Made by a program: the position numbers and the translations under genes. Positions 1,447 through 18,342 of a stretch of DNA of 24,000 bases are shown here, piece after piece. Where the stretch lies: the NCBI GenBank assembly GCA_043750035.1, contig JAYVCI010000116.1, positions 1-24,000 on the forward strand, given 5' to 3'. Positions within the stretch are counted from its first letter, which is position 1; each line of letters starts with the position of its first letter. Source of the stretch: Chitinophagaceae bacterium. Its GTDB lineage: Bacteria > Bacteroidota > Bacteroidia > UKL13-3. The notes below the pieces were generated by a model. The model ran no database searches. It was not told the origin of the DNA and saw only the letters and a list, made by a program, of their open reading frames with translations.

Positions 1447-3624
1447 TCACTCCAATCCCACTTCAACCGACCCTTTCCTGCAATCTGTTAGGTTACTTTT
1501 ATATAACACGGCTTCTTTTTGCCACCTGTCAATATAATAGTTCGAATTGCTCAAATCAGCTATATAATGTCTGGCTTTTATTTTGTGGGCCAAGTCTTGC
1601 CAATGCTTTATTGGTCTGTGGCTAATGATGGCAATATCCACCGAATCCTTTAATTCGGCAGTAGGAGTTTGGTCCACAATCAAAATTTTTTTGCCATTGA
1701 AAATATATAGATTTTTATAGTTTTGTAATTGCTTTGTTGTTTGTATAGCGGTATCATGTAAAGAATATAATTTCTTCTCATTTGCCCCCATATCAATCCA
1801 GTGTTTTTGAAATTTGAATTTGAGTGTAGCGGTATTATATAATATATGGGTATCGCCCACCGCGGTTAATTTATCTGAATCGAAGAAACCCACTACTGTC
1901 TTGCCCTGTATGGCATATACAAATACCTTTTTTTGCCTAGCCCAACCATAACTTTCTACCATTTTTGAGCTCAGAAAAATAAAAATACCTATAGCAGCAG
2001 CATAGAAATTGTAGTTGTTTTTATGTGTGAGAAATTGGGTAACAAAAAAGAATATCACCAATAATAAAATCGTTTGCCAAAATCCCACACTCACACCCTC
2101 AAATGTAGCATACGGTATTTGGCCGATAAATATAACAGTATCATCCGTCCATTTTATTAAATAGTCGAGGGCAATGCCCATACCCGATGCCATGGCAGGG
2201 ATAAAAGAAAAAGCCACCAACAATAGTCCTATATAAGTTATAATAGTGGAGAGTGGAATAATAAGTAAATTGCTTATGAGAAAGTAATTGGGAAACTGCC
2301 CAAAATAATAAAACCCCAACGGCGAAGTGGCCAATTGTGCAGCAATGGATACCGCTGTGATATTCCATACCTGATTCATGAACCATGTATTAAAAGTAAA
2401 CCAACTGTAGATGCGTGGATGCAAAAACACAATGCCCAATACTGCCAGATATGAAAGCTGAAAACCCACGTCGTACAGCGAATAAGGATTGATGAGCAAC
2501 AGTATAAACGCTGATGCGGCAATGGAATTATATATATTGGTATTGCGGTGAAAGGTCTCGGCTATAATAATGATGGTAAACATTAATGCTGCCCTATTTA
2601 CGGAAGGCGACAAACCCGTAATTAAAGCATAAAACCAAAGCATAACTATTATAATACAGAAACGCAAAATCCGGAGTGATTTTTTGCGGGTTAAGAAACC
2701 CAACATCGCCTTGAGCACAAAGTATAATATACCCACGTGCAAGCCTGAAACTGCCAGTACATGCAGGGTTCCTGTATCTGCATACGCCTCTACCAAATCC
2801 TGCGATAAATCTTCCCGATAGCCAAAAATCAATGCAGCAGCAACTCCTTTTTGTTCATCACCGGGTATATATATTTTGTATATGCCTACTATATAACTTT
2901 TAATAGCATAAAATATATTATCCAATACATGCGATGAATCTTTTCCTACCTCAGTCCATTCCCCATTACGTGCAAAAACCTGGTAGCTATATCCATTAAT
3001 TTTCATATAGCGGTTATAGTCAAATTCGCCCGGGTTCAGTGGTTTGGGGATTTCAATCGGTTTGCTTTTAATAAGTAATATAGTTCCATGCTCAAGCTGC
3101 ACCGCATTGCTGTCTTTGGGCAAGTATAGTAATATATTGCCACTAGCGTTTATATAATTGCTGTCGTGAATTACTGCCAATACTTTTGCCCTTGCCCGTA
3201 CCGATTTATCACGAGGTATTGCATTTTCTGTCAGCTCAATTTTAATAAGCTGGTTGTCTTTTTGTAGTTTTACAAAATGATTGTTTTTATAATTATCAGC
3301 TTGGGTAACGGGCAATAACAATCCCAGTATAATAAAAGAAACATTTATACAAACAGTATATAATATTTTAAGTTTTCTGGTAAACTTATTTTGATAGAAA
3401 ACGAGAACAAATAATATACAAATCACTACAATAAAAGCCCACTGTATAACATTGAAAATGCCAGTGAAATAAGGCGAGCAAGCGATACCCAAAACCAATG
3501 GCAGCACCATCCGCACAAAAGGTACTTGGTGCCAGGGGTTCACATGCTGTGTTTGTATAATATGTTCTTTATTATACTGCCTTACCCTGAAAAATTGTTG
3601 TATAAAGTTGATGAGCCACTTCAT
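1447..3624 (-). CDS. comEC: ComEC/Rec2 family DNA internalization competence protein
   Basis: 725-aa polytopic membrane protein with the ComEC competence-domain signature DTGTLHVLAVSGLHVGILY and many TM helices. ATG start at 3624. Confidence 0.85.
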   Translation of the reverse strand: MKWLINFIQQFFRVRQYNKEHIIQTQHVNPWHQVPFVRMVLPLVLGIACSPYFTGIFNVIQWAFIVVICILFVLVFYQNKFTRKLKILYTVCINVSFIILGLLLPVTQADNYKNNHFVKLQKDNQLIKIELTENAIPRDKSVRARAKVLAVIHDSNYINASGNILLYLPKDSNAVQLEHGTILLIKSKPIEIPKPLNPGEFDYNRYMKINGYSYQVFARNGEWTEVGKDSSHVLDNIFYAIKSYIVGIYKIYIPGDEQKGVAAALIFGYREDLSQDLVEAYADTGTLHVLAVSGLHVGILYFVLKAMLGFLTRKKSLRILRFCIIIVMLWFYALITGLSPSVNRAALMFTIIIIAETFHRNTNIYNSIAASAFILLLINPYSLYDVGFQLSYLAVLGIVFLHPRIYSWFTFNTWFMNQVWNITAVSIAAQLATSPLGFYYFGQFPNYFLISNLLIIPLSTIITYIGLLLVAFSFIPAMASGMGIALDYLIKWTDDTVIFIGQIPYATFEGVSVGFWQTILLLVIFFFVTQFLTHKNNYNFYAAAIGIFIFLSSKMVESYGWARQKKVFVYAIQGKTVVGFFDSDKLTAVGDTHILYNTATLKFKFQKHWIDMGANEKKLYSLHDTAIQTTKQLQNYKNLYIFNGKKILIVDQTPTAELKDSVDIAIISHRPIKHWQDLAHKIKARHYIADLSNSNYYIDRWQKEAVLYKSNLTDCRKGSVEVGLE

Positions 3625-3739
3625 TCAGTGGCCAAAAGTAAATCAAAAAAGTGAGATTTGAAAAGCTTTGGATAGCGGCAGGTTAAAATAATAATTTATA
3701 TCTTTCATGCTTCACATTGCGAGTCACTATAGCTACGGC

Positions 3740-3793
3740 ACTTATAACCGCAAGTACATTGCCGAGGTGGTTTCCCTTCTTATGGGAGCCCAT
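3740..3793 (-). pseudogene. Degraded RHS-core fragment encoding ..NHLGNVLAVIS..
   Basis: The minus-strand translation MGSHKKGNHLGNVLAVISAV.. matches NHLGNVLAVISD of the rhs ORF. The DNA is about 80% identical over about 35 bp to 11205-11240. Stops lie on both sides. Confidence 0.5.
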
Positions 3794-3907
3794 CGGATTT
3801 TAAAAGGATTTTTGCTGTATGTATGGGTGCTGGGGTTCAAATATTTTCCTAGTTTTCGGGGTCAAATGTAAAACATATCTGTGAATTATTTATTGGGTCT
3901 GTTTTCG

Positions 3908-3915
3908 TATCTTTG
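3908..3915 (+). promoter_or_regulatory. Candidate Bacteroidota -7 promoter element (TAnnTTTG)
   Basis: TATCTTTG is an exact match to the TAnnTTTG consensus. It lies only 5 nt upstream of the GTG at 3920, which implies a near-leaderless transcript or a wrong start call. Confidence 0.25.
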
Positions 3916-3919
3916 AGAG

Positions 3920-4477
3920 GTGAAAAAGAACAAGGAGAAAGAACTGGATTTCGAGATCGACAAACTAACGAACTCTATTGAGAATTCGCTTACGGGAGAG
4001 ATTTTCGAGACCGAGATCACACAGCTCTGGCCCAGCGACAGCAAACAAATAAAGAAGCAGGACTGGGGCTTTGACTGGCACAAAGAATTAAAAAGTACAA
4101 CCAACGAAATATATAAACTCACAACCATGAACAACCCAATGGTTATCCCCGGGCTTATATGTTTCACAGACAAGCACGACCATGTTTTCATGCCCCTGAT
4201 CGAGAGTGCCAAGTTCAACAAAGGGAAGCATAAGCTGTACAGGGGCGTGGCTGGCAACCTGGTTGCTTTTGGCTGTAAAGTGTCTTTTGAAAAAGGCTAC
4301 GATGGTGTGGTTTCCTTCATCGCCAAATCGCAGCTTATAGAGCATTACCACAAAACCCTGGGTGCAAAACAATTTGGTGGCGGCAACCGGATGTTCATCG
4401 ACACCAAAGAAGCCCACACATTAGTAAAACAATATTTTAAAAATTTCAGTTATGATAAACCTAAAAAAAATGGATGA
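3920..4477 (+). CDS. Hypothetical protein, possibly with a GNAT-like acetyltransferase fold, of a family seen on Bacteroidota mobile elements
   Basis: 185-aa ORF with a GTG start. The segment YRGVAGNLVAFGCKVSFEKGYDGVVSFIAKSQLIEHYHKTLGA resembles a GNAT motif-A region. This was recognised from memory only, with no search run. Confidence 0.45.
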   Translation: MKKNKEKELDFEIDKLTNSIENSLTGEIFETEITQLWPSDSKQIKKQDWGFDWHKELKSTTNEIYKLTTMNNPMVIPGLICFTDKHDHVFMPLIESAKFNKGKHKLYRGVAGNLVAFGCKVSFEKGYDGVVSFIAKSQLIEHYHKTLGAKQFGGGNRMFIDTKEAHTLVKQYFKNFSYDKPKKNG

Positions 4478-4607
4478 CCATGATTTCGTGTTCGTGAACA
4501 AGCCATTGACAGAAAAAGAAGAAAAGGAATTTAGTGATTTTCTCAAGCAACGAAAAGCGAGGTTGAGATCTAAAAAAACTGCACAGACGAAAAAAGCATC
4601 GGCATAA
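4470..4607 (+). CDS. Small basic ORF (45 aa) overlapping the stop of the preceding gene
   Basis: The ATG at 4470 overlaps the TGA at 4475-4477 (ATGGATGA). It translates to MDDHDFVFVNKPLTEKEEKEFSDFLKQRKARLRSKKTAQTKKASA. It is not in the supplied track because it is under the length cutoff. Confidence 0.3.
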   Translation: MDDHDFVFVNKPLTEKEEKEFSDFLKQRKARLRSKKTAQTKKASA

Positions 4608-4633
4608 GATTTTCTCTATGCAAGTAAAACAAT

Positions 4634-4777
4634 TATACCCACGACGATTTATAATCATAGCTGTGAACAAGGTTTTGCGATTTGTGATCGCAGTGCACTC
4701 TTTAAAAAGTATTATATACAGTGATTACATTCCGATAGCTATCGGATCACGATTCCATTAGCACGCCGATTACAAAT
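4634..4777. repeat. Left copy (A) of the island-bracketing direct repeat
   Basis: It aligns with 12225-12353. The first 93 bp carry 3 substitutions. Then 19 bp here, part of the perfect 16-bp palindrome TCCGATAGCTATCGGA at 4731-4746, stand in place of 4 bp in copy B. The final 32 bp are identical. Confidence 0.9.
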
Positions 4778-4784
4778 CGGCGTG
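4762..4784. promoter_or_regulatory. Candidate tyrosine-recombinase core site (attP-like) with 8-bp inverted arms and a 7-bp spacer
   Basis: The sequence is CACGCCGA-TTACAAA-TCGGCGTG, with perfect inverted arms. The A/B repeat identity ends one base past the spacer. The site lies 3 nt upstream of the recombinase ORF. Confidence 0.5.
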
Positions 4785-4786
4785 GG

Positions 4787-5620
4787 TTGGTAAAAGAAAA
4801 AAACTATTGGAAAAAATTTAATATGAAATATACTGCCTTTTTATTAAAGAAGGGGTATACCGATAATTACATAGGTTTCCATTTCAAAAATATTAAAGTA
4901 TTTTTTGCTTATCTTGAGCAAGACGGGTTCCCTGGCATAAGCCAAGTGTCCAAATCGTTCTATATTCGAAAAGAAGAGATACCTGTTCTTGTGCTGCTGC
5001 CTGAGCAACTGAGTTTTTTAATCAACAACACTGAGTTTGAACAAACCCTCACGCCCAAACTTAAACGGACCAAAGATTTTTTTGTGTTTGGCTGCACTGT
5101 TGCACTTCGTTTTTCAGATTTGCTGAGGCTTAAGAAATCCAATTTGGTCAAAACAAATTCTAGTTGTTACCTAAGAGTAGTATCACAGAAAACAGAAACT
5201 GAAACACAAATAAAATTACCTGCTTACGCTCTTAAAATACTTGAACAAAACAAAAGCTCGAATAATTTCATATTGCCCAGAATATCAATGGTAAACCTTA
5301 ACAAAAGCATCAAGGAATTAATTGAGGCGGCTGGCTGGACGCATCAGTTGCCAAAAATCCGCAGCAAAAATGGCAAAAAGATTGAAATAAAATCGAAAAA
5401 CAACAAACCTTCGAGATTTTGTGACCAGATGTCGTCCCACGTAATGCGAAGAACAGCTATTACCACTATGCTTATTTTAGGAGTTCCGGAGCAAGTGGTG
5501 AGGAAAATATCTGGACATGCTGCTTCGAGCAAAGAATTTTACAGATACGTTAATTTTTCAAAGGCATTTCAGGACCAAGAAACTGATATGATGTTTGAAC
5601 GATTGATCAGAATAAAATAA
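4787..5620 (+). CDS. Tyrosine site-specific recombinase/integrase, short form (277 aa)
   Basis: Catalytic signature present: ALRFSDLLRL (Arg I), SSHVMRRTAIT (H-x-x-R) and GHAASSKEFYRYV (His plus the nucleophilic Tyr). The start is uncertain, either TTG 4787 or ATG 4823. Confidence 0.85.
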   Translation: MVKEKNYWKKFNMKYTAFLLKKGYTDNYIGFHFKNIKVFFAYLEQDGFPGISQVSKSFYIRKEEIPVLVLLPEQLSFLINNTEFEQTLTPKLKRTKDFFVFGCTVALRFSDLLRLKKSNLVKTNSSCYLRVVSQKTETETQIKLPAYALKILEQNKSSNNFILPRISMVNLNKSIKELIEAAGWTHQLPKIRSKNGKKIEIKSKNNKPSRFCDQMSSHVMRRTAITTMLILGVPEQVVRKISGHAASSKEFYRYVNFSKAFQDQETDMMFERLIRIK

Positions 5621-5674
5621 TCCTCAAAAAATGCACGTTTTTAATAAAAAACACCCATATTTGCATAAAACAAA

Positions 5675-6829
5675 ATGTCAAACTTAACCTACGATACCAA
5701 GCGAGAAGCCCAGATTCCGTATCATCCGTTCGGGAGTGTAATCCCAGGGCGTACTTGGAGCGAGCCGAGCCTTACGGGGGCGTACAGATTTTCATTTACA
5801 GGTCAAGAAGCTGACAACGAAATAGCAAACGATGGTGATTATTATTCTTTTAAATACCGTATCCACGACAGTAGATTGGGCAAATTTTTAAGTATGGACC
5901 CATTAATGAAAAAATATCCTTATCAAAGCCCCTATGTTTTTTGCGAAAACAGGGTCAACGATTGCAAAGAATTAGAGGGAGCTGAAGGACTTAATTCAAC
6001 TATATATGTAACTCCTGCTGTATATGGAATTACTACAGTTTTGACAATTACCAATCCTGCACCGATATCTTGGCAACTTAGTGAAACAAATATTACTGTT
6101 ATGGGAACAGCGACAACTAGAGCACAAATACCCGTAGACCAATTTAGTACAACAACCGGTGGCCGAATGTATCGCGATGGGAGAACTGCTTTTAACTCAG
6201 GTTGGAATGTAGACAGGGCTGGCCTTTTTGTATGGGGTACATCAACTAGTTCTATAGCACCGCAACCAATCCTTTATAGCAATACGAATGATGGAGTTAC
6301 AAGAATTAATACAAATGGAGTAAATCCTGTAAATACAGTACTTGGAACTGCAACATTTGGAACAGGTGCATTAGGCACGGTTCCTGCTTTTGTCGGAGCA
6401 GTTGCCCCTGCGGTAAATAATGCCATGGCTAATGCTAATGCAGCTATAGGTACTACTACTCCTAATGCCCCAACAAATAATAATATACCTATAGCTACAA
6501 ATGTGCCAACAGCGTTAGGCCCCGTCAATATTAACAGCAGTGTACAAACCATTGGACAAACAACTGTTACCGGTATTAATAATTTGACACTCACAATAAC
6601 TGGAAATCCAGCAAACACAGCTCAAATTAATACTCGTGCAGTTGCGTTGCAAACTGCATTCCCAGGTGTTACTGTAGTTTCAAACACTACTCCTGCTGCA
6701 GCAGCTGGACAAGTTTCAGTAAGCTTCTCACACACACAGCAAACTAACATACAAACAATAGCTACTCAACAAACTACAGCTACAACTTCCAATGGCAGCG
6801 TGATTCCTAAAACAATAATCAGTAGATGA
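5675..6829 (+). CDS. Orphan RHS repeat-associated core and C-terminal tip cassette on the opposite strand to the rest of the array
   Basis: The N-terminus YHPFGSVIPGRTWSEPSLTGAYRFSFTGQEADNE..YRIHDSRLGKFLSMDP..SPYVF is an RHS-associated core. It is followed by a T/N/A/G-rich low-complexity tail of about 280 aa. Confidence 0.75.
   Translation: MSNLTYDTKREAQIPYHPFGSVIPGRTWSEPSLTGAYRFSFTGQEADNEIANDGDYYSFKYRIHDSRLGKFLSMDPLMKKYPYQSPYVFCENRVNDCKELEGAEGLNSTIYVTPAVYGITTVLTITNPAPISWQLSETNITVMGTATTRAQIPVDQFSTTTGGRMYRDGRTAFNSGWNVDRAGLFVWGTSTSSIAPQPILYSNTNDGVTRINTNGVNPVNTVLGTATFGTGALGTVPAFVGAVAPAVNNAMANANAAIGTTTPNAPTNNNIPIATNVPTALGPVNINSSVQTIGQTTVTGINNLTLTITGNPANTAQINTRAVALQTAFPGVTVVSNTTPAAAAGQVSVSFSHTQQTNIQTIATQQTTATTSNGSVIPKTIISR
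5720..5775 (+). repeat. 56-bp in-frame RHS-core box, copy 1, inverted relative to copies 2 and 3
   Basis: TATCATCCGTTCGGGAGTGTA (21 nt) and TGGAGCGAGCCGAGCCTTAC (20 nt) are identical to the reverse complement of 11041-11096. The 15 nt between them have 6 mismatches. Confidence 0.85.
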
Positions 6830-7866
6830 CAATTATAATAAGAAATATCTTTTTTTTAGCCTTATTCATATTTTTTTTCTCATGTAAAAATGAATCTAGA
6901 AAAGCAAATTTAGAGGAATTTGAAAAAAAGATTATTGCAGACTCACTACTTGAAAAGTTTACTAACAAACCTGAAGAATTTGAATTCAATATGGATAAAG
7001 ATCAAACAATAAAAATTGCATCTGGTATAGAAATAAAGATATTTAATAAAAGTCTTATTAAGAATCCTGGGAAAATATACCAAGGTAAAGTTAAATTATC
7101 ACTTAAAATGATTAATAAAATCGATGAGTTTTTAAAAGAGTATATAGCTTCAGAAAGTGATAAAGGAGAGCTTATGAGAACGCAAGGTTATTTAAGGCTT
7201 GATTTAAGAGACAGTTTAGGAGAAAGTCTCTTTATAGATCAATTACATCCTCTTAGGCTAGTGATTGATAAAACACATGAGCTTTCTTCATATCATTGTT
7301 ATAGTTATGATACGGTACGCTATGGCTGGGGAATTCCGCAAGATTTTTCAAAAATAAACCTTAAAGATACAGGTTTACCTCCGTTTTTTTGGAGCAATTC
7401 ACTAGATGAAAAAACAGATACTGCAAAGAACTATAATCTATTAGGGCATAAAGTTACAGGAAGTGTTTTCCTGTCTTTCTATGTAACTTTAAGATATGCT
7501 GATACATGGAATGGGATAAATAGGCTTTGGGAAGAGCCTTATATACAACCAGCATATTTTCAATGTAAGTTATCCAATTCTCCTATGGAATTAAAGAATA
7601 TAAAAATGGCTCTAATACTTAAGGAAGACCATTGTTTTTTAACTGGTAAATCATCTAGAAAAAATATTTTTTATCTAGACAAATCAAGTGATGGCATAAA
7701 AAAACTTCCGATAGGGCACGAGGCCTACTTAATTTTGTACGGATTCGAGAACAATAAAGCATATTATTTTCAGAAAAAAATTACAATCTCAAAGCATAAT
7801 GTCGTTGAGGCTCAAATGGCACAAATTACTATAGATGAATTAGAACAGAAAATTAAGAATTTATAA
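6826..7866 (+). CDS. Predicted lipoprotein, candidate cognate immunity or partner of the 5675-6829 cassette
   Basis: Its ATG overlaps the upstream TGA (ATGA). The N-terminus MTIIIRNIFFLALFIFFFSCKNE is a signal peptide with a lipobox-like Cys. No family was recognised. Confidence 0.55.
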   Translation: MTIIIRNIFFLALFIFFFSCKNESRKANLEEFEKKIIADSLLEKFTNKPEEFEFNMDKDQTIKIASGIEIKIFNKSLIKNPGKIYQGKVKLSLKMINKIDEFLKEYIASESDKGELMRTQGYLRLDLRDSLGESLFIDQLHPLRLVIDKTHELSSYHCYSYDTVRYGWGIPQDFSKINLKDTGLPPFFWSNSLDEKTDTAKNYNLLGHKVTGSVFLSFYVTLRYADTWNGINRLWEEPYIQPAYFQCKLSNSPMELKNIKMALILKEDHCFLTGKSSRKNIFYLDKSSDGIKKLPIGHEAYLILYGFENNKAYYFQKKITISKHNVVEAQMAQITIDELEQKIKNL

Positions 7867-7966
7867 TAAGGTAATGTATATGATTATCTGTTTTGCAGCA
7901 CAGGAGTTGATTTGAAAAATATTGCCTTTACTAAACATAATTGTAAAGTATATGATAGTGCGTCAT

Positions 7967-8062
7967 TTACCTCACAAATCTACTATCATATATCCTTGCA
8001 CCTAAATTTATATCATTTCCCTCACCACTAATCTCGTCCACCTTCCCTTTCCAATGAACCCA
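7967..8062 (-). pseudogene. Degraded RHS-core fragment, truncated at both ends
   Basis: The minus-strand translation WKGKVDEISGEGNDINLGARIYDSRFVR* aligns with NGKEKVDEIEGDGNAYDFGARIYDNRLGR of the 8603-9577 cassette. It has no PFGSV box upstream and no tip downstream. Confidence 0.55.
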
Positions 8063-8087
8063 AAAAACTATTCTACAGTTATTGTTG

Positions 8088-8591
8088 TCAAGTATGCGTT
8101 ATCGAGTATTTGTTTTCTTCTAACAATTTAAAAATATGCTCTAATGTTTTGGCGGGTTCATTTAGATAAAGTGAAATAATTGAACCGTTCGCTTTATCAT
8201 ATATTGTAATAAGTTTACTAAGATGATGCCCTCCTTGCTCATAATACAACATAGAGTAATTTTTTGATTCTACGTATAATATCAAACGTTGACTAGGTCT
8301 ATAGAAATTAAATATTGTGCGTGTGCAACCCCCTCTGAATTTCTTGTTTGGATTGGCTATTCTGAACCTTTCATCCGTATGCTCTTCTATTTTTGCCCTA
8401 AAAGATTTGTTGATATGGTTCCTTTTTAAGTATACTTTGACCGCATTTTTTTCCAAACATAATTTTTGTACGATTATATTTGTTGTAGTATCATAAGCTT
8501 CACACCTATGATTTGTAATCGTAAAAAGAACAAATATAATAATCTGTGCAATGATATTCTTATTAGAATATTTAATATTTATAGATTTCAT
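8088..8591 (-). CDS. Exported or membrane-anchored small protein, candidate immunity for the HExxH tip
   Basis: 167 aa, beginning 11 nt after the upstream toxin stop. It has an N-terminal hydrophobic anchor IIAQIIIFVLFTIT. No family was recognised. Confidence 0.5.
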   Translation of the reverse strand: MKSINIKYSNKNIIAQIIIFVLFTITNHRCEAYDTTTNIIVQKLCLEKNAVKVYLKRNHINKSFRAKIEEHTDERFRIANPNKKFRGGCTRTIFNFYRPSQRLILYVESKNYSMLYYEQGGHHLSKLITIYDKANGSIISLYLNEPAKTLEHIFKLLEENKYSITHT

Positions 8592-8602
8592 TTTGAAACG
8601 TT

Positions 8603-9577
8603 TTAATCTTCTGTACTTTCTAGCGTGTGAAGCCCACTTCCCGGATTGCCTTTTTTGACAGGTTGGCTTTGTTTGTCATCTACCTTTTTTGAAGTAGAAG
8701 TAGAATTCTCCGTTGCTGCATCGGTGCCATAATGATTTGTCCTAATAGGAAGATTTAATCTCAATGCCTGAGGGTTCTCGATTTGCTCAATTACTTCTTT
8801 TTCATGAGCGTTTTCCCATTTTGAGTCTACCCTTTCTTGGTTCAGTTTCCATTTTTTTCTAAATGAATAGAACCAAAATATCTTGAAATGCCCAAGTTCA
8901 TGATATAAGGCTAATGCAGGGGTTTGAATTTTTCCTGTAGGTTTGTCTTCATCATCTGCAACATTTGTACCGTCTCGAGGAGCCCAAGTTATTCTCCTCC
9001 TCCACCTATCAGCATAGTCATTCTTACCATGTTTAACTTGATGGATATTAACGGTTTTTTTGTGAGCAGAAATCTGGTCAACTAATCCTTCAGGATCTGC
9101 TTTTCTATTATATTCAAGAGCCGCAACGGTTTGCTCCACAAAATCATTCTTTATTGTGCATGCGACACCTGGTTGGTATACATATCTTTGTTTTACACCA
9201 TTGGCATCCTTATATACTATAACAATTTTTTCACCTGTAGGATCTATGGCAATTAATGGCATATTAGCAACAAATACGTAAGGAGAAATACCTGCGTATT
9301 CACTTTCTAAAGGATCCAAACTCATCCATCTCCCCAACCTGTTATCATATATCCTCGCCCCAAAATCATAGGCATTTCCATCACCCTCAATTTCATCAAC
9401 TTTCTCCTTCCCGTTGAAACCGTACTTGTATGTGGCACTAAGGCTCGGCTCGCTCCAGCTCCTCCCCGGAATCACACTCCCGAACGGATAACTCATTTTG
9501 TGCTTCCAAATTGGTGTTTTGATGTAAAAAGTACCCAATTGATTTATATGTATATGCTTATAATGCAAGGTGGTCAT
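8603..9577 (-). CDS. Orphan RHS-core cassette with a zinc-metallopeptidase-like (HExxH) C-terminal toxin domain
   Basis: YPFGSVIPGRSWSEPSL..YKYGFNGKEKVDEIEGDGNAYDFGARIYDNRLGRWMSLDP..SPYVFVANMPLIAIDPTGE is an RHS-associated core ending in DPxG. The tip contains LALYHELGHF. The likely true start is the ATG at 9496 (MSYPFGSV). Confidence 0.75.
   Translation of the reverse strand: MTTLHYKHIHINQLGTFYIKTPIWKHKMSYPFGSVIPGRSWSEPSLSATYKYGFNGKEKVDEIEGDGNAYDFGARIYDNRLGRWMSLDPLESEYAGISPYVFVANMPLIAIDPTGEKIVIVYKDANGVKQRYVYQPGVACTIKNDFVEQTVAALEYNRKADPEGLVDQISAHKKTVNIHQVKHGKNDYADRWRRRITWAPRDGTNVADDEDKPTGKIQTPALALYHELGHFKIFWFYSFRKKWKLNQERVDSKWENAHEKEVIEQIENPQALRLNLPIRTNHYGTDAATENSTSTSKKVDDKQSQPVKKGNPGSGLHTLESTED
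9439..9490 (-). repeat. RHS-core box, copy 2, one codon shorter
   Basis: It shares ATCCGTTCGGGAGTGT (16 nt) and GGAGCTGGAGCGAGCCGAGCCTTA (24 nt) with the copy at 11041-11096, in the same orientation. Confidence 0.8.
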
Positions 9578-9586
9578 ATGAAAAGC

Positions 9587-10228
9587 CTATCTAATGAATA
9601 ATTGAACACCTAAAGACAAGTCGAAACTAAATCTATTAGAAATTGTATTATAAAAAATTTGGTCCTTGCTTAAGAAAAAATATGAGCGTTGGGAAATAGT
9701 CAACTTCAACCTTTTATTAAAATAATCTAGAAACCCATACGTTAATCCATAAGAAACAAATATATTATTATTAGATGACACATAATTTGATAAATATTCA
9801 TATTTATTGTAAAGTGAATCTAACGGTTTTGTATTAGTTTTATTTAGTATTTGAAGATGATAGTTTGAAATGCCAAGTCCAAAGTCATTTCTGTAATATT
9901 TCCCCTTTTTGTTTTTTTCAACCCCATAAATAATAGAAGATTTATTGCATGAATACATAACAGAATACATGCCTTTTTTTAAGTTGTAATCATCTTGAGA
10001 ATATGAGATACCTATTACTATACCAGGTTTAAAAGTAATAAAAAATGATGCTCCGACATTATCCATAAATAATGGTAATTTAAGATCGAGTATTTGGTTT
10101 TTGGTTATTTTGAGATTACTACCATAGTTTACAATTACCAATAATTTATTCGTGTCGGGAGGGTTCCCTTTAGCTATGCATAAACAGAAAATTAATGCCA
10201 GTAAAGATGTAAAAAACAATTTTGTCAT
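9587..10228 (-). CDS. Signal-peptide protein with features of a small outer-membrane beta-barrel, candidate partner or immunity of the rhs tip
   Basis: Its ATG lies 1 nt after the rhs stop. It has the signal peptide MTKLFFTSLLALIFCLCIAKG. The C-terminal strand RFSFDLSLGVQLFIR alternates hydrophobic residues as an OMP terminal strand does. Confidence 0.5.
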   Translation of the reverse strand: MTKLFFTSLLALIFCLCIAKGNPPDTNKLLVIVNYGSNLKITKNQILDLKLPLFMDNVGASFFITFKPGIVIGISYSQDDYNLKKGMYSVMYSCNKSSIIYGVEKNKKGKYYRNDFGLGISNYHLQILNKTNTKPLDSLYNKYEYLSNYVSSNNNIFVSYGLTYGFLDYFNKRLKLTISQRSYFFLSKDQIFYNTISNRFSFDLSLGVQLFIR

Positions 10229-10229
10229 T

Positions 10230-12233
10230 TTATAGTTGTTTGATTATTTTTTTAGCACTTTTATAAAATTTGAAAACATTTTTAATTGCTTTTTCATTTT
10301 TTGATTTCGCTCCTTCATAGGATACTTTATTTTTAGCTAGTTTTCCGTTTTTCTCATCTATTTTTTTTTGCGTATCCTCAATTTCTTTACTATTGTGTTC
10401 TGAGCCATCTTCTTTCTTCAAAGACTCAAGTTTAGTTTCTATTTGGTTTTTTTCGCGTTCTACCTCTTCATATTTAGATATTATTACTTCATTTGCCTTA
10501 AATTTTTCAGAGTTAACAATGGTTTCCATTTTTACCACATATATTTTGTTTAAAGCCATGCCTTCAAGATAACCTAATCCTACAGCTCCAGCTGCAGCAA
10601 ATTGGAATTTTTTGAAAAACCCTAGAATTGCAGTGCCTGCGACAAATGAAGGTGCTCGAAAATCAAATGGTCCAGAACCTTTAACTAATCTATAATTAAG
10701 AATGTCTTTATATTTTTCATCCATATTAGTGGCTTTGATAGCATTATTAACAACACCGTCTGCAGTTGCGGTTTTAATTGTTAGAGATGTAAAAAAACCA
10801 AGACCGAGATTAAAATTACTTTTGACACCTTCCAGCCCATCAATATCTATACATAAAACAGGTGAATTACTTGCAAATTGATATGGGGATAGCATAGGAA
10901 AGGATTTTGTAACTGGATCAATGCTTAAGAACCTACCTAACCTATCGTCGTATATTCTCGCCCCAAAATCATAAGCGTTCCCTTCACCATGTATTTCGTC
11001 AACTTTATCCTTCCCGTTGAACCCGAACTTGTACTTGGCTGTAAGGCTCGGCTCGCTCCAGCTCCGCCCCGGCAATACACTCCCGAACGGATGATAATCT
11101 GTGGCTTGAACAAGAATAGCCTTATAGTTATTAAAATAGGTAATATGGTTGGTATCTCCCCCTGATATTATTTCAATACTAGTACATTGTGTTTTCCACT
11201 GGTCGGAGATTACCGCGAGCACGTTGCCGAGGTGGTTAGACAATTCGTACCTTTTGGTACTACGAACCAAAGTCTTATAATTATAATTCACATCATATAA
11301 AGTATCAGTAATGCTATCCCTGTTAGTATAAGAACCTGTCAAGCGACTATATACCCCTGCGAATGTCTGTTTTCGTATCATCTGGTCTGCCTGGATAGAA
11401 CCAAGCCTTGAACTTCCATACAAATATAGTTCCTCAAGCTTAAAGTTCTCTACAAAACTTTGAGTATCGCTTGTATAATAGTCTATTAAACTATCATAGT
11501 AGCCTTGTCCAAAATAATCCTTCACATACAAAAGATATTGTTCCTTGGTATAATAGTTTTTTTCATCCTGGGTGTACCCTGCATACAATGGGAAATATTT
11601 CAGTGCCACCCAGTAATTGTCGGGTCCTCCGTTCACAGTGTCCATCCAGTTTGTCCAGTAGTGGAAGTAACTGCTGCCAGGATACAGTGCCCAGGTCTGC
11701 TGGCAGAGCATAAACTTATCATATGCCACAAGGGCATTATACCTTAATGTGTCAGCATACATTGTATTAAGCACATCACCCAGCATTGACAAACCTGTAG
11801 TAGCAGCATCGAAATCTGTATTGCTTAAGGTATTCATTATCGGGGCTAGCCCAGAACAGCCCAGATGCGTGTTACTCCAGACGCTTATCGGAACATCGTA
11901 GAAAGAAGACGCCAGATCGGTCACACATGTCGGGTAGGCAGGTGTTGGGCCCGGTGGATTTACACTTATGTACATCAGGTCGTAGTCTGTGAAAGAATGA
12001 TTAAACAACGCTGTCAGCCATTCTGTTTTTATGTTGGTTATAATAGATGTATGATAGTTTGCAGAATTATAATTGCAGAGATCGGTGGCAAAGACCAATT
12101 TTGTTTGGTACTCTCTGAATATAGTAGCCAGATCAGTAGTGGGATAGCTGGTCAGTACTGTTCCAAGTTGGTTCATATTAAACAGATACTGTTTTATATA
12201 AGCAGTGTCTAACAGGCTGGCCGCTATACCCAC
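10230..12233 (-). CDS. 5'-truncated RHS-family polymorphic toxin fragment: C-terminal shell, RHS-associated core and tip
   Basis: LYLYGSSRLG, RYELSNHLGNVLAVISD and DYHPFGSVLPGRSWSEPSL..FGARIYDDRLGRFLSIDP..SPYQFASNSPVLCIDIDGLEG identify it. The tip has a Gly/Ala-rich hydrophobic stretch followed by a Lys/Glu-rich coiled-coil-like tail. The frame opens only 3 codons above the GTG, inside repeat B. Confidence 0.75.
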   Translation of the reverse strand: MGIAASLLDTAYIKQYLFNMNQLGTVLTSYPTTDLATIFREYQTKLVFATDLCNYNSANYHTSIITNIKTEWLTALFNHSFTDYDLMYISVNPPGPTPAYPTCVTDLASSFYDVPISVWSNTHLGCSGLAPIMNTLSNTDFDAATTGLSMLGDVLNTMYADTLRYNALVAYDKFMLCQQTWALYPGSSYFHYWTNWMDTVNGGPDNYWVALKYFPLYAGYTQDEKNYYTKEQYLLYVKDYFGQGYYDSLIDYYTSDTQSFVENFKLEELYLYGSSRLGSIQADQMIRKQTFAGVYSRLTGSYTNRDSITDTLYDVNYNYKTLVRSTKRYELSNHLGNVLAVISDQWKTQCTSIEIISGGDTNHITYFNNYKAILVQATDYHPFGSVLPGRSWSEPSLTAKYKFGFNGKDKVDEIHGEGNAYDFGARIYDDRLGRFLSIDPVTKSFPMLSPYQFASNSPVLCIDIDGLEGVKSNFNLGLGFFTSLTIKTATADGVVNNAIKATNMDEKYKDILNYRLVKGSGPFDFRAPSFVAGTAILGFFKKFQFAAAGAVGLGYLEGMALNKIYVVKMETIVNSEKFKANEVIISKYEEVEREKNQIETKLESLKKEDGSEHNSKEIEDTQKKIDEKNGKLAKNKVSYEGAKSKNEKAIKNVFKFYKSAKKIIKQL
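11041..11096 (-). repeat. RHS-core box, copy 3, in the large rhs ORF
   Basis: See 5720-5775 and 9439-9490. All copies are in the same codon phase (YHPFGSV..WSEPSL). Confidence 0.85.
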
Positions 12234-12353
12234 GACGATTTATAATCATAGCTGTGAACAAGGTTTTGCGATTTGTAATCGCAGTGCACTCTTTAAATAG
12301 TATTATATACATTGATTGCAAATCACGATTCCATTAGCACGCCGATTACAAAT
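12225..12353. repeat. Right copy (B) of the island-bracketing direct repeat, overlapping the lpdA stop
   Basis: It aligns with 4634-4777. It ends in CACGCCGA-TTACAAA-TGTATACA, in which the lpdA stop (12346-12348) and last codon lie within the 7-bp spacer. Confidence 0.9.
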
Positions 12354-13734
12354 GTATACACTCCCCATACGCATCGGCAGTGGCTTCCATTATGGCCTCG
12401 CTCATGGTAGGGTGTGGGTGTATTGATTTCAAAATTTCATGGCCTGTGGTTTCCAAGCGGCGGGCAACAACGGCTTCGGCAATCATTTCGGTAACATTTG
12501 CACCTACCATGTGGCAGCCGAGCCATTCGCCATATTTGGCGTCATATATTACTTTTACCATTCCATCTTTTACACCCGATGCACTGGCTTTGCCGCTGGC
12601 ACTAAAGGGGAATCGCCCTACTTTAATATCATAACCCAGTTCGCGGGCTTTCTTTTCGGTCAACCCTACACTTGCTACCTCGGGCCAGCAATACGTACAG
12701 CCGGGTATATTATCGTAATTGAGTGGTTCGGGATTGTGGCCCGCAATTTTTTCTACACATATAATTCCTTCGGCACTTGCCACGTGGGCAAGGGCTGGAC
12801 CTTTCACAATATCGCCAATAGCATATATACCTTCTACATTTGTTTTATAAAAATCATCAACCAATACTTTCCCTTTTTCTGTGGCGATTTTCATTTCTTC
12901 TATACCAATATTTTCAAGGTTTGTTTGTATGCCTACTGCCGATAAAACAATATCACACTCAATAATTTCTTCTCCTGTTTTGGTTTTAATTTTCACTTTA
13001 CAACCATCGCCTTTGGTATCTACTGACAGTACTTCAGATTCGGTCATTATACTAATCCCCGATTTTTTGTAGGTCCTTGCCAGGGCTTTTGATATTTCTT
13101 CATCTTCAAGCGGTAATATATTGGGAAGAAATTCTACGATGGTAACTTTGGTTCCTATACTATTATAGAAGTACGCAAACTCAGCACCTATTGCTCCAGA
13201 GCCAACTACTACCATACTTTTGGGTTGGGTTGGAAGCACCATCGCATCTGCATAGCCTACTATTTTTTTGCCGTCCATTTTTATGTTGGGCAATTCACGA
13301 CTGCGGGCACCAGTGGCGAGTATAATACTTTTAGCTTCGTGAATGGTTTTCTTTCCGTCAGCTCCGGTTACTTCCAGTTTGCCTTTTCCAACAATCTTTC
13401 CAATACCTACAATTACTTCAATTTTGTTTTTCTTCATCAAAAAAGAAATGCCTTTGCTCATGCCATTGGCTACATCGCGGCTGCGTTTTACGATATTTGC
13501 AAATTCGGGTTTGTGTTCACCAACCGTAATTCCATAATCTGCTGCATGTTTAATATATTCAAATACTTGGGCCGATTTCAGCAAAGCTTTGGTGGGGATA
13601 CAGCCCCAATTGAGGCATACACCTCCCAATTCAGATTTTTCTACAATGGCCACCTTCAAACCCAATTGACTAGCCCTAATTGCTGCTACATAACCGCCTG
13701 GGCCACTGCCTACTACTATAATATCAAAACTCAT
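12346..13734 (-). CDS. lpdA: Dihydrolipoyl dehydrogenase (E3 component)
   Basis: IVVGSGPGGYVAAIRA (FAD-binding GxGxxG), the redox-active disulfide motif GGVCLNWGCIPTK and the C-terminal HPHPTMSE motif. 462 aa. Confidence 0.95.
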   Translation of the reverse strand: MSFDIIVVGSGPGGYVAAIRASQLGLKVAIVEKSELGGVCLNWGCIPTKALLKSAQVFEYIKHAADYGITVGEHKPEFANIVKRSRDVANGMSKGISFLMKKNKIEVIVGIGKIVGKGKLEVTGADGKKTIHEAKSIILATGARSRELPNIKMDGKKIVGYADAMVLPTQPKSMVVVGSGAIGAEFAYFYNSIGTKVTIVEFLPNILPLEDEEISKALARTYKKSGISIMTESEVLSVDTKGDGCKVKIKTKTGEEIIECDIVLSAVGIQTNLENIGIEEMKIATEKGKVLVDDFYKTNVEGIYAIGDIVKGPALAHVASAEGIICVEKIAGHNPEPLNYDNIPGCTYCWPEVASVGLTEKKARELGYDIKVGRFPFSASGKASASGVKDGMVKVIYDAKYGEWLGCHMVGANVTEMIAEAVVARRLETTGHEILKSIHPHPTMSEAIMEATADAYGECIHL

Positions 13735-13771: not shown

Positions 13772-14066
13772 TAAACCCAAATCACGCAGAAGAAAATAAA
13801 ATACATCCCTGCCTATGAAAAAATTTTCTGATGCGTAGATTTGAGCATCCCGATAGCAATTCAAATAAAAGCAAATTTCACTAGACCTATTTCATAATAC
13901 AAAAATCTTCTATAAAGAAACAGAAACTAATAAAACTGTAGTCCAAATGAGATTGCCACGTCACACAAACACACAGCCAACGCGTCGTTCCTCGCAATGA
14001 CGATGTGAATTATGAAAAAGGTCTACTTGCGTTTTTCGGGATAAACCCAAATCACGCAGAAGAAAA
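13772..14066. repeat. MITE-like intergenic insert flanked by a perfect 25-bp direct repeat
   Basis: TAAACCCAAATCACGCAGAAGAAAA occurs at 13772-13796 and 14042-14066. Internal 17-bp inverted repeats lie at 13882-13898 and 14009-14025 (16/17 match). The insert contains a GATTGCCACGTC...CGTTCCTCGCAATGACG motif. Confidence 0.6.
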
Positions 14067-17614: not shown

Positions 17615-18174
17615 TCCTGCCAATATATGCTTATGGTGAACCCGCACTTAGAAGTGAGTGTATTGAAATACAGCGTACCTTCCCTCACCTTGAAGATATT
17701 ATAAAAAATATGTGGGATACCATGTACCATACCAATGGCGTTGGACTTGCAGCACCGCAAATTGGCCTCTCTATACGCTTGTTTGTAGTTGACTCGACTG
17801 AGATGTATAAAGATGAGGAAGATGAAAACCCCGGCACAGGCATTAAAAAAGTTTTTATTAACCCATCCATTACTAATGAGTCGGGGCATGAGTGGGAGTA
17901 CGAAGAAGGTTGCTTGAGCATACCGGGAATAAGAGAGTTCGTAAGCCGTAAGCCTACGATCACTATCAGGTACCAAGATGAGAATTTTGAAACGCATACC
18001 GAAACGTATGATGGCTTAACTGCCCGTGTTATCCAGCATGAGTTTGATCATATCGAAGCTATATTGTTTATTGATAAGATATCTTCGCTAAAACGCCAAT
18101 TGAACCGCAATAAACTGTTGCAAATTAGCCGTGGCATGGTGGATGTGAAATACCGGATGAAATTTGCGAGATAA
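17611..18174 (+). CDS. def: Peptide deformylase
   Basis: All three canonical motifs are present: GVGLAAPQIG, EGCLSIPG and QHEFDHI. Confidence 0.95.
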   Translation: MILPIYAYGEPALRSECIEIQRTFPHLEDIIKNMWDTMYHTNGVGLAAPQIGLSIRLFVVDSTEMYKDEEDENPGTGIKKVFINPSITNESGHEWEYEEGCLSIPGIREFVSRKPTITIRYQDENFETHTETYDGLTARVIQHEFDHIEAILFIDKISSLKRQLNRNKLLQISRGMVDVKYRMKFAR

Positions 18175-18270
18175 AAAATGGCTTATACTCCTAACTGAAA
18201 CCCAATGGTGGGTGAGCCTAAACTAGGTCCCATACCAATATGTTCCACATCGGCGGCGGTCAATGTTTTA
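18171..18270 (-). pseudogene. Diverged duplicate of the last ~90 nt plus stop of the AAA+ gene
   Basis: It matches 18331-18430 at 86/100 positions, and the first 40 nt are identical. On the minus strand it would encode ..TAADVEHIGMGPSLGSPTIGFQLGV*, against ..TVADVEHISAGPGLGSPTIGFQLGV* in the intact gene. It starts within the def stop codon. Confidence 0.7.
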
Positions 18271-18274
18271 AAAA

Positions 18275-18319: not shown

Positions 18320-18342
18320 CTAATTGTAAAATAAAAAATGGC

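What the first reader, a model, noticed from the sequence alone, without database searches (positions are those of the whole stretch)
4762..4784. Perfect 8-7-8 core site at repeat A versus a hybrid site at repeat B: attP-like and attL/R-like architecture
At A the sequence is CACGCCGA-TTACAAA-TCGGCGTG, with perfect inverted arms and a 7-bp spacer. That is the geometry of tyrosine-recombinase core sites. At B (12338-12360) the left arm and spacer are identical, but the right arm is lpdA coding sequence (TGTATACA). The A/B identity stops one base past the spacer, which is where strand exchange would be expected. One possible reading is that A is a reconstituted attP between two tandem elements. 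Under that reading, the second, degraded element would lie to the left at about 3650-4633, holding the GNAT-like gene, the 45-aa ORF and the rhs remnant. A also carries an extra perfect 16-bp palindrome (4731-4746) that B lacks.
Basis: partly seen in the sequence, partly recalled or inferred. Interest (0 to 1): 0.7.

Follow-up and report, generated by a model that had tools for sequence, protein, structure and literature searches.

The report
Palindromic junction site of an Rhs islet
A perfect 23-bp palindrome and its half-replaced copy at the end of the lpdA gene mark the edge of an 8.7-kb block of broken toxin genes inserted between lpdA and comEC; this is a fairly ordinary insertion scar, and the recombinase gene next to it is a truncated relic.

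Summary
The sequences are exactly as described. However, the palindrome is really 10-3-10 (CACGCCGATT-ACA-AATCGGCGTG), so "8-7-8" is only one way to parse it.

Close relatives, including one with at least 90% identical LpdA, have lpdA directly followed by comEC. So about 3655-12345 is an insertion, and the 129-bp repeat is not native lpdA terminator DNA.

The native lpdA end already reads TTACAAATGTATACA. B therefore joins the island's palindrome to lpdA inside an 8-bp identity centred on the palindrome's dyad. This fits an attP-like (A) versus hybrid (B) reading.

A homologous palindrome in a relative's Rhs array (AACGCCAA-TTACAAA-TTGGCGTT) has symmetric arm changes, the same right flank and the same neighbouring hairpin. 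Both arms of A therefore belong to the repeat unit.

Three parts of the interpretation are not supported:
- **Tandem elements.** The tandem-element idea has no support.
- **Left junction.** No attL-like site lies at the left edge, and about 20 nt of native spacer are missing there.
- **Cognate integrase.** The "277-aa recombinase" lacks about 68 N-terminal residues. Its family's conserved context is inverted repeats inside Rhs toxin genes, not this palindrome.

Verdict: a real recombination scar of a known kind, in a decayed Rhs toxin/immunity islet. Interest is modest.

The parts
4762..4784 (.). Intact palindromic site (PAL2, copy A): CACGCCGATT-ACA-AATCGGCGTG. It can be parsed as 8-7-8 around the dyad at 4773.
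   Evidence: The homologue AACGCCAATTACAAATTGGCGTT in L099 shares the right flank GGTTGG(T)AAAAG.
12338..12360 (.). Hybrid site (copy B). The left arm plus TTACAAAT come from the island repeat and GTATACA from native lpdA. The crossover lies somewhere in 12346-12353.
   Evidence: Native ends in relatives.
4634..4796 (.). Repeat element N, complete copy. It has two inverted units: U1 (degenerate palindrome 4640-4662 CACGACGA-TTTATAA-TCATAGCT plus hairpin 4676-4692) and U2 (degenerate hairpin with a 16-bp palindrome in its loop, PAL2, and flank GGTTGGTAAAAG). The outer ~23 nt form imperfect terminal inverted repeats.
   Evidence: (inverted self-match at 4581-4640)
12225..12353 (.). Repeat element N, copy B. 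It has the same left terminus as copy A (TATACC...) and is cut at the centre of PAL2 where lpdA begins.
4731..4746 (.). 16-bp perfect palindrome TCCGATAGCTATCGGA, inserted in the loop of the second hairpin of copy A only. The same 14-mer core recurs in unrelated Bacteroidota loci.
4787..5620 (+). 5'-truncated tyrosine recombinase gene (277 codons from TTG; the gene caller starts at ATG 4823, giving 265 aa). Catalytic motifs are retained. Residues 1-~68 of the family are absent.
5675..6829 (+). Orphan Rhs C-terminal cassette (Rhs_assc_core at its N-terminus). The inverted-repeat arm 5720-5786 lies 100 bp after the recombinase stop codon.
6826..7866 (+). Putative immunity ORF of the inverted cassette. 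The assignment rests on position only; there was no family match.
8088..10228 (-). Second orphan Rhs C-terminal cassette (8603-9577; Rhs_assc_core, weak Peptidase_M91) flanked by two small putative immunity ORFs (8088-8591, 9587-10228).
10230..12233 (-). 3' fragment of the main rhs gene (Rhs_assc_core at aa 380-467). Its reading frame is open right up to the left terminus of repeat copy B, so the gene is 5'-truncated there. It carries inverted-repeat arm 11030-11096.
3744..4633 (+). Fragment of another module: a 12-codon rhs scrap (NHLGNVLAVIS, - strand), a 185-aa ORF, a 51-aa ORF and the first ~5-8 codons of an HTH gene. It is 86% identical to L099 2648-3518 and L100 20-890 and ends at the repeat's left terminus.
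   Evidence: (D14)
3655..12345 (.). Whole insertion (~8.7 kb) between comEC (1447-3624, -) and lpdA (12346-13734, -). It is absent from relatives. The left edge is approximate.

Best explanation
The window carries an ~8.7-kb foreign islet between comEC and lpdA. It is a mosaic of truncated pieces: part of an Rhs toxin C-terminus inversion module (recombinase', two orphan toxin cassettes, immunity-like ORFs, rhs') and a fragment of another small module.

Two copies of a ~130-160-bp inverted-repeat element (N) cap the Rhs piece. Each outer end of N carries a palindromic site of the form xACGCCxA-TTACAAA-TxGGCGTx.

Copy A keeps that site intact, so it is the parental, attP-like form. In copy B the site is joined at its centre to the last 8 bp of lpdA (TTACAAAT), which the native gene already has.

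Most likely step (inferred): a conservative exchange of the tyrosine-recombinase type within the 7-bp central region, between the island-borne palindrome and a pseudo-site formed by the lpdA stop codon region. This left lpdA intact.

The left end of the islet was made or later eroded by a non-conservative event. The adjacent 277-aa recombinase is a relic of an Rhs-locus recombinase family. It is probably not the enzyme that made the junction, and that enzyme is not encoded in the window.

Shown: the insertion, the empty sites, the hybrid nature of B, the conservation of the palindrome unit and the truncation of the recombinase.
Inferred: that the palindrome is a recombinase site and that the B junction was made by site-specific exchange.
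For: - Empty sites: lpdA is directly followed by comEC in L005/L006 (42-bp spacer), L007/L008, and L108/L109. L108 is from MAG GCA_025363675.1, whose LpdA is in the same 90% cluster.
- The repeat is absent from all of these and from 80 recombinase-family loci.
- The native lpdA end is TTACAAATGTATACA in L005, so the B junction lies in an 8-bp identity. That identity (4770-4777) is centred within half a base of the palindrome dyad (4773).
- L099 carries the hairpin, then AACGCCAATTACAAATTGGCGTT, then GGTTGGAAAAG, collinear with window copy A. Two arm positions are changed symmetrically and the centre is identical.
- The same left terminus (TATACC...) abuts two different truncated genes, at 4633|4634 and 12224|12225. 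This is as expected for a discrete element.
- The hairpin is not followed by a T-run, so it is not an intrinsic terminator.
Against: - Only one hybrid junction exists.
- No reciprocal (attL) junction is present, and ~20 nt of native spacer are lost at the left edge.
- No intact recombinase is present, and the neighbouring gene's family shows no such palindrome in 80 loci.
- The other three N junctions lie at the element's termini, not at palindrome centres.
- N was not found in viral contigs, JGI metagenome contigs, plasmids or phages, so there is no population of sites to show recombination.
- Symmetric arm changes in a single homologue fit a hairpin or an operator as well as a recombinase site.
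- Other insertions at the same spot also start right after the stop codon (IS256-type element in L097, MITE-like insert in L007). Position next to the stop codon is therefore not itself evidence of targeting.
Confidence: 0.5

Rival explanations
1. N is a structured, MITE/REP-like repeat with terminal inverted repeats. The B junction and the other abrupt junctions arose by illegitimate, microhomology-guided joining and by deletions between repeat copies. No site-specific recombinase acted on the palindrome.
For: - N has ~23-nt imperfect terminal inverted repeats and a defined left terminus used twice.
- The A-right junction lies in a 9-10-nt microhomology, TTGGTAAAAG, shared by the unit's flank (L099 GGTTGGAAAAG) and the recombinase gene (homologues TGGGTAAAAG).
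- All genes abutting N except lpdA are truncated.
- The left edge of the islet is non-conservative.
- The locus is a general insertion hot spot.
Against: - N is not multi-copy anywhere that could be searched.
- No target-site duplications are present.
- The 8-bp microhomology at B coincides with the dyad of a 23-bp perfect palindrome, roughly a 1-in-100 coincidence if junctions were random within N.
Confidence: 0.3
2. Two tandem integrative elements sit at the lpdA 3' end. A is an attP reconstituted between them, the left one (3650-4633) is degraded, and the 277-aa recombinase is the integrase acting on A and B.
For: - B has exactly the sequence predicted for attR from attP = A and attB = the empty site.
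- The two N copies differ by 4 substitutions and a 16-bp indel, which is compatible with separate histories before they were joined.
- A sequential integration into an earlier hybrid site would regenerate a perfect palindrome at A.
Against: - The left block is homologous to a different module and is not collinear with the right block.
- There is no attL.
- The recombinase lacks two of the four core-binding helices.
- The recombinase's junction to N is 3-12 nt outside the palindrome.
- The recombinase family's recurring partner sites are Rhs-internal inverted repeats 100-170 bp from the gene.
Confidence: 0.1
3. The palindrome is an operator or other regulatory protein-binding site, or an RNA/DNA hairpin with no role in recombination. 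Its position at the lpdA junction is coincidental. Alternatively, the arrangement is a metagenome assembly chimera.
For: - The 10-3-10 perfect dyad is typical of dimeric HTH operators.
- An HTH gene follows the 181-aa/50-aa module in L099/L100, where N sits in the window.
- The source is a MEGAHIT contig.
Against: - An operator does not explain the 8-bp identity with the native lpdA end exactly at the dyad.
- The longest exact A/B identities (52 and 32 bp) are well below the final assembly k of 141 implied by the contig name.
- Junction-flanking ORFs are recorded from NCBI, ENA and Logan sources.
Confidence: 0.1

Closest known systems
Core-type sites of tyrosine recombinases (lambda att core, loxP, FRT, dif, IntDOT/NBU att cores) and attP/attB/attL/attR hybrid logic
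   Same: - Inverted arms lie around a 6-8-bp central region.
- The hybrid site shares one arm and the centre with the parental site.
- The centre is identical in both partners.
- The target overlaps the 3' end of a gene, which is left intact.
   Different: - No intact cognate recombinase is present.
- The reciprocal junction is absent.
- The central region is itself partly palindromic (10-3-10).
- The site lies at the end of a small inverted-repeat element rather than next to an integrase promoter.
Recombinase-associated orphan immunity/toxin arrays (polyimmunity loci with XerC/D-like genes, Zhang et al. 2012, PMC3482391; rAID-1 of Bacteroidales, Ross et al. 2019, doi 10.1101/471110)
   Same: - A tyrosine recombinase gene sits beside orphan polymorphic-toxin and immunity cassettes in Bacteroidota.
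- Repeated intergenic sequence lies at block boundaries.
- The content varies between strains.
   Different: - rAID-1 is defined by a 5' recombinase followed by co-directional low-GC genes.
- Here the genes are in mixed orientation, only two repeat copies are present, and the recombinase is truncated.
- Identity to the rAID-1 recombinase was not tested.
Shufflon-type multiple-inversion systems (R64 Rci/pilV)
   Same: The recombinase family of the window's truncated gene recurrently sits next to an Rhs gene. A constant N-terminal part of that gene faces an inverted alternative C-terminal cassette through inverted repeats in the coding sequence.
   Different: - Inversion has not been demonstrated.
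- The repeats are 77-330 bp of coding DNA.
- The A/B palindrome is not part of those repeats.
MITEs / REP-like palindromic repeats
   Same: - The element is about 157 bp with imperfect terminal inverted repeats and internal hairpins.
- It is non-coding.
- It has a defined terminus abutting different DNA.
   Different: - No target-site duplication is present.
- It is not detectably multi-copy.
- One copy is cut at the dyad of its terminal palindrome.

Membership tests
Tyrosine-recombinase core site with attP/attB/attL/attR products | Inverted binding arms flanking a 6-8-bp overlap region | tested here: met
   CACGCCGA-TTACAAA-TCGGCGTG is perfect. The arms actually extend to 10 bp, leaving a 3-nt centre.
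Tyrosine-recombinase core site with attP/attB/attL/attR products | An unoccupied attB that shares the overlap sequence, and a hybrid junction whose crossover lies in the overlap | tested here: met
   L005 empty site is CTATAATC-TTACAAA-TGTATACA. B is CACGCCGA-TTACAAA-TGTATACA.
Tyrosine-recombinase core site with attP/attB/attL/attR products | A reciprocal junction (attL) at the other end of the inserted DNA | tested here: not met
   Local alignment of the right half-site against 3640-3720 scores no better than 66% of random window positions. About 20 nt of native spacer are missing.
Tyrosine-recombinase core site with attP/attB/attL/attR products | An intact cognate recombinase encoded with the site | tested here: not met
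   The gene lacks ~68 N-terminal codons, which form half of the core-binding domain. The family shows no such palindrome in 80 loci.
Tyrosine-recombinase core site with attP/attB/attL/attR products | Recombination activity at the site | not testable with these tools
   This needs read-level or biochemical data.
Integrated genomic island at the 3' end of a gene | Present/absent polymorphism at a conserved locus in close relatives | tested here: met
   lpdA-comEC are adjacent in L005-L010 and L108/L109. L097 has a different insert.
Integrated genomic island at the 3' end of a gene | Direct repeats bracketing the whole insertion | tested here: not met
   Copy A lies ~1 kb inside the left edge. 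Nothing repeat-like is present at 3650-3700.
rAID-1 / recombinase-associated polyimmunity array | A 5' XerD-like recombinase (>44% identity to BF9343_RS08045) followed by 2 or more co-directional low-GC genes with repeated intergenic motifs | tested here: inconclusive
   - The recombinase is only weakly Xer-like.
- Only two genes are co-directional with it.
- GC is 27-41% across the islet.
- Two repeat copies are present.
- Identity to the reference recombinase was not tested (criteria from doi 10.1101/471110).
Rhs C-terminus inversion module (architecture seen here in the recombinase family) | Recombinase gene 100-170 bp from an inverted-repeat arm that starts at the (Y)PFG-coding motif and pairs with an arm inside an rhs gene | tested here: met
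   Arm 5720-5786 lies 100 bp after the recombinase stop codon and pairs with 11030-11096 (84%) and 9439-9489 (86%). The same layout occurs in L071, L077, L079, L084 and L086. Both the recombinase and the rhs gene are truncated here.
MITE / REP-like repeat | Many dispersed copies with target-site duplications | tested here: inconclusive
   - There are two copies in the window and one related half-unit in L099.
- None was found in 1.3 Mb of related loci, viral or JGI metagenome scans, plasmids or phages.
- GTDB genomes were not scanned for it.
- No TSD is seen.

The most novel reading that the evidence does not exclude
The palindrome-bearing units (hairpin + xACGCCxA-TTACAAA-TxGGCGTx) could be the boundary recombination sites of a cassette-moving system. 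By exchange at the palindrome centre, such a system would excise and re-insert blocks of Rhs toxin/immunity DNA in environmental Bacteroidota, in the manner of integron attC or pdif modules. The lpdA junction would be a captured secondary-site event. A recombinase of the Rhs-associated family, perhaps even the N-terminally shortened form, would be the enzyme.
Probability: 0.1. Interest if true: 0.7.

Novelty: new member of a known kind. Interest (0 to 1): 0.35.

Why it matters
As a junction site it matters little. It documents how a scrap of an Rhs toxin/immunity locus landed in an intergenic hot spot without damaging lpdA, and it gives a candidate 23-bp recombination site that could be tested.

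The context is worth more. The truncated recombinase belongs to a large Bacteroidota family (1581 hits). That family recurrently sits beside giant Rhs genes facing inverted alternative toxin ends. This suggests recombinase-driven switching of toxin/immunity pairs, and I could not find that described in the searchable literature.

Tried and rejected
- **Right arm of A as recombinase coding DNA.** I first read TCGGCGTG as recombinase codons R-R-G, on the model that the palindrome was a chance or pseudo-site juxtaposition. I rejected this because L099 and the inverted unit U1 carry the same right arm plus the GGT... flank with no recombinase gene. DNA homology to the closest recombinase genes starts only at about 4787.
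- **SSV-like split integrase.** The idea was an attP inside int with the N-terminal part at the other end. I rejected it because no N-terminal coding sequence exists anywhere in the window and the frame upstream is full of stops.
- **N as native lpdA terminator.** Rejected on the empty sites and the lack of a T-run.
- **N upstream of the closest full-length recombinase genes (L002-L004).** Nothing was found.
- **A conserved palindrome near the recombinase gene across 80 loci.** I found only terminators and one genome-specific palindrome.
- **Similarity between the Rhs inverted-repeat boundary (GATTACTATCC...) and CGATTACAAATCGG.** They share only GATTAC, which I judged to be chance.
- **Collection scans with 18-23-mers of N** (viral twice, JGI metagenomes once). 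All hits were chance matches inside unrelated coding sequence.
- **First genome-contig scan with a single recombinase.** It found nothing.
- **Look-up of the 956-aa ORF to reach the rest of the contig.** It failed.

Full report
**Observation.** lpdA occupies 12346-13734 on the minus strand, and its stop codon is the TTA at the start of the 'spacer'. The repeat is 4634-4777 versus 12225-12353, at 96% then 100% identity, with a 16-bp palindrome present only in A. Identity ends one base after TTACAAA.

Two qualifications apply:
- The inverted repeat extends into the spacer. The true structure is a perfect 10-3-10 palindrome, with a DNA hairpin of -11.1 kcal/mol and z = -6.75.
- A perfect 8-7-8 somewhere in 24 kb is expected in about half of composition-matched shuffles, and a second one exists at 3555. 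The geometry alone proves nothing.

**Source and neighbours.** The window is a MEGAHIT metagenome contig (ERZ27314274, 41 kb). The genes between A and B are as follows:
- A Phage_integrase-family ORF.
- Three ORFs with the Rhs-associated core domain: 5675-6829 (+), 8603-9577 (-) and 10230-12233 (-).
- Small ORFs without family matches that sit where immunity genes usually sit.

No tRNA or Rfam RNA is present.

**The recombinase is truncated.** The full-length homologues shown are about 340-415 aa, against 265-277 aa here; 1581 were found. The reading frame upstream of 4787 is closed by stops, and the missing ~68 residues are encoded nowhere in the window. In an AlphaFold model of homologue P0003 (mean pLDDT 85.8), residues 1-68 contain two of the four helices of the N-terminal core-binding domain. 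The catalytic motifs remain.

**Empty sites.** LpdA proteins 94-95% identical (P0122, P0123) lie on contigs where lpdA is followed directly by comEC. The spacer is 42 bp in L005/L006. In L007/L008 the same spacer holds a ~150-bp MITE-like insert. A member of the same 90% cluster, from MAG GCA_025363675.1 (L108), also has lpdA-comEC adjacent, with a 48-bp spacer. Another member (L097) has a different 5-kb insert containing an IS256-family transposase.

From this it follows that:
- About 3655-12345 of the window is an insertion in a hot spot.
- The native lpdA end already reads TTACAAATGTATACA (L005). Variants are TTATAAAT in L108, TTACAAGT in L097 and CTACAAAT in L007.

B is therefore a hybrid of the island-derived left arm and native lpdA. 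The two partners are identical over 8 bp (TTACAAAT), and that stretch is centred on the palindrome dyad.

**What the repeat is.** L099 is an Rhs orphan-cassette array from the same MAG that has the empty lpdA site. Its sequence is CTGCGATTGCAAATCGCAAAACC-TTTAA-AACGCCAATTACAAATTGGCGTT-GGTTGGAAAAG. Window copy A is collinear with this: a degenerate hairpin with the 16-bp palindrome in its loop, then ATTCCATTAG, then CACGCCGATTACAAATCGGCGTG, then GGTTGGTAAAAG.

The two palindromes differ at two arm positions, changed symmetrically, and share the centre. The left end of N (4640-4693) is a second, inverted and partly degenerate copy of the same unit. N is therefore a ~157-bp element with ~23-nt imperfect terminal inverted repeats.

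This has three consequences:
- Both arms of A belong to the repeat unit, so A is the unrecombined form.
- The junction to the recombinase gene lies outside the palindrome, within the short shared stretch TTGGTAAAAG.
- The same left terminus (TATACC) abuts two different truncated genes. One is an HTH gene cut after ~5-8 codons at 4633|4634. The other is the rhs fragment, at 12224|12225.

**The left block.** Window 3744-4632 is 86% identical to L099 2648-3518 and L100 20-890. It consists of an rhs scrap, a 181-aa ORF, a 50-aa ORF and the start of an HTH gene. It is not a degraded copy of the right block.

The 185-aa protein family is large (1604 hits), highly conserved and mostly found on ~1-kb contigs. 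In L101/L102/L104 it sits beside a tRNA gene (the sequence reads as tRNA-Met by eye; ARAGORN was not run). Beyond the 3' end of that tRNA the DNA differs between strains. Its normal habitat therefore seems to be the edge of variable or integrative regions.

No attL-like sequence is present at the islet's left edge. About 20 nt of native spacer next to the lpdA stop codon are missing.

**What the recombinase family normally accompanies.** In 80 GTDB loci, the gene commonly sits next to giant Rhs ORFs, in two recurring layouts:
- Class 1: 23 of the 51 loci with at least 5 kb upstream have an inverted-repeat arm ending 125-170 bp upstream of the recombinase gene. This arm pairs with one inside an upstream rhs gene.
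- Class 2: the arm starts ~130 bp downstream of the gene and pairs with a downstream minus-strand rhs.

The arms begin sharply at the codons for (D)YYPFG, run 77-330 bp, and reach 95-100% identity. The window has the class-2 layout (5720-5786 / 11030-11096, 84%), but with both the recombinase and the rhs gene truncated.

None of these loci has a palindrome like A. This makes the neighbouring gene an unlikely catalyst for the A/B site.

**Mechanism.** The best reading (confidence about 0.5) is that the palindrome is a recombinase-type site at the end of an island-borne repeat element. On this reading, B arose by exchange within its 7-8-bp centre with the matching lpdA stop-codon region.

The main rival (0.3) is microhomology-guided illegitimate joining of a MITE/REP-like repeat. 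That rival fits the other three junctions and the non-conservative left edge. It makes the coincidence of the 8-bp identity with the dyad a roughly 1% accident.

The tandem-element model with the 277-aa enzyme as integrase keeps about 0.1. An operator-only role or an assembly chimera together keep about 0.1.

**Searches for further copies of N.** All failed: two viral scans and one JGI metagenome scan gave only chance coding matches; plasmids and phages gave none; and 1.3 Mb of related loci gave only L099. GTDB genomes could not be scanned for N because both genome scans went to the recombinase.

**Comparison with known systems.** The A/B pair behaves like a parental and a hybrid core site of a tyrosine recombinase. 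Two defining features, the reciprocal junction and an intact cognate enzyme, were tested and not met. It should therefore be called an att-like scar rather than a functional att system.

The setting resembles recombinase-associated polyimmunity loci (PMC3482391) and rAID-1 arrays (doi 10.1101/471110), but it does not meet their architectural definition. Literature searches for recombinase-linked inversion of Rhs C-termini returned nothing relevant. I list that architecture as a side observation worth its own study.

Noticed in passing
window 4787-12233; loci L014, L020, L024, L026, L029, L031, L036, L037, L051, L075 (class 1) and L071, L077, L079, L084, L086 (class 2): The recombinase family (1581 hits, Chitinophagales/Flavobacteriales/Sphingobacteriales) recurrently sits 100-170 bp from an inverted-repeat arm. 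That arm starts at the YYPFG-coding motif of an 'orphan' Rhs C-terminal cassette and pairs with the same motif inside a giant rhs gene. The arms are up to 100% identical over 77-330 bp. This looks like recombinase-driven switching of toxin/immunity ends. I found no description of it in the searchable literature.
   Followed up: partly
window 4732-4745; L086 9840, 12717, 12978, 14367; L054 20519; L101-L104 (7615 / 820): The palindrome CCGATAGCTATCGG, often extended to GGCGTGTC-CCGATAGCTATCGG-GACACGCC, recurs in unrelated Bacteroidota loci. It appears four times around one recombinase/Rhs locus and also next to the 179-aa ORF module. Its function is unknown.
   Followed up: partly
window 3920-4607; L099-L107: The 185-aa + ~50-aa ORF pair belongs to a very large, highly conserved family (1604 hits, 70-89% identity) with no Pfam or NCBIfam match, mostly on ~1-kb contigs. 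In L101/L102/L104 it lies beside a tRNA gene (tRNA-Met by eye; ARAGORN not run). Beyond the 3' end of that tRNA, strain-specific DNA begins, which suggests the pair marks the edge of an integrative element.
   Followed up: partly
L007 11390-11545; L097 11390-12700: The same lpdA-comEC spacer holds a ~150-bp MITE-like insert with inverted ends (CGTCATTCTGAGC...) in one relative. In another it holds an IS256-family transposase with 40-nt inverted repeats plus TPR/MORN genes. The spacer is a general insertion hot spot.
   Followed up: partly
window 13772-13796 and 14042-14066: A perfect 25-bp direct repeat, TAAACCCAAATCACGCAGAAGAAAA, occurs 270 bp apart, just upstream of lpdA and downstream of the VTT-domain gene.
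   Followed up: no
window 18164-18271 and 18324-18431: A 108-nt direct repeat (84% identity) occurs 160 bp apart, between the peptide deformylase gene and the end of the 868-aa AAA-type ORF.
   Followed up: no
window 3555-3577: A second perfect 8-7-8 palindrome, GTATAATA-TGTTCTT-TATTATAC, lies inside the 5' end of comEC. It is AT-rich and probably chance.
   Followed up: no
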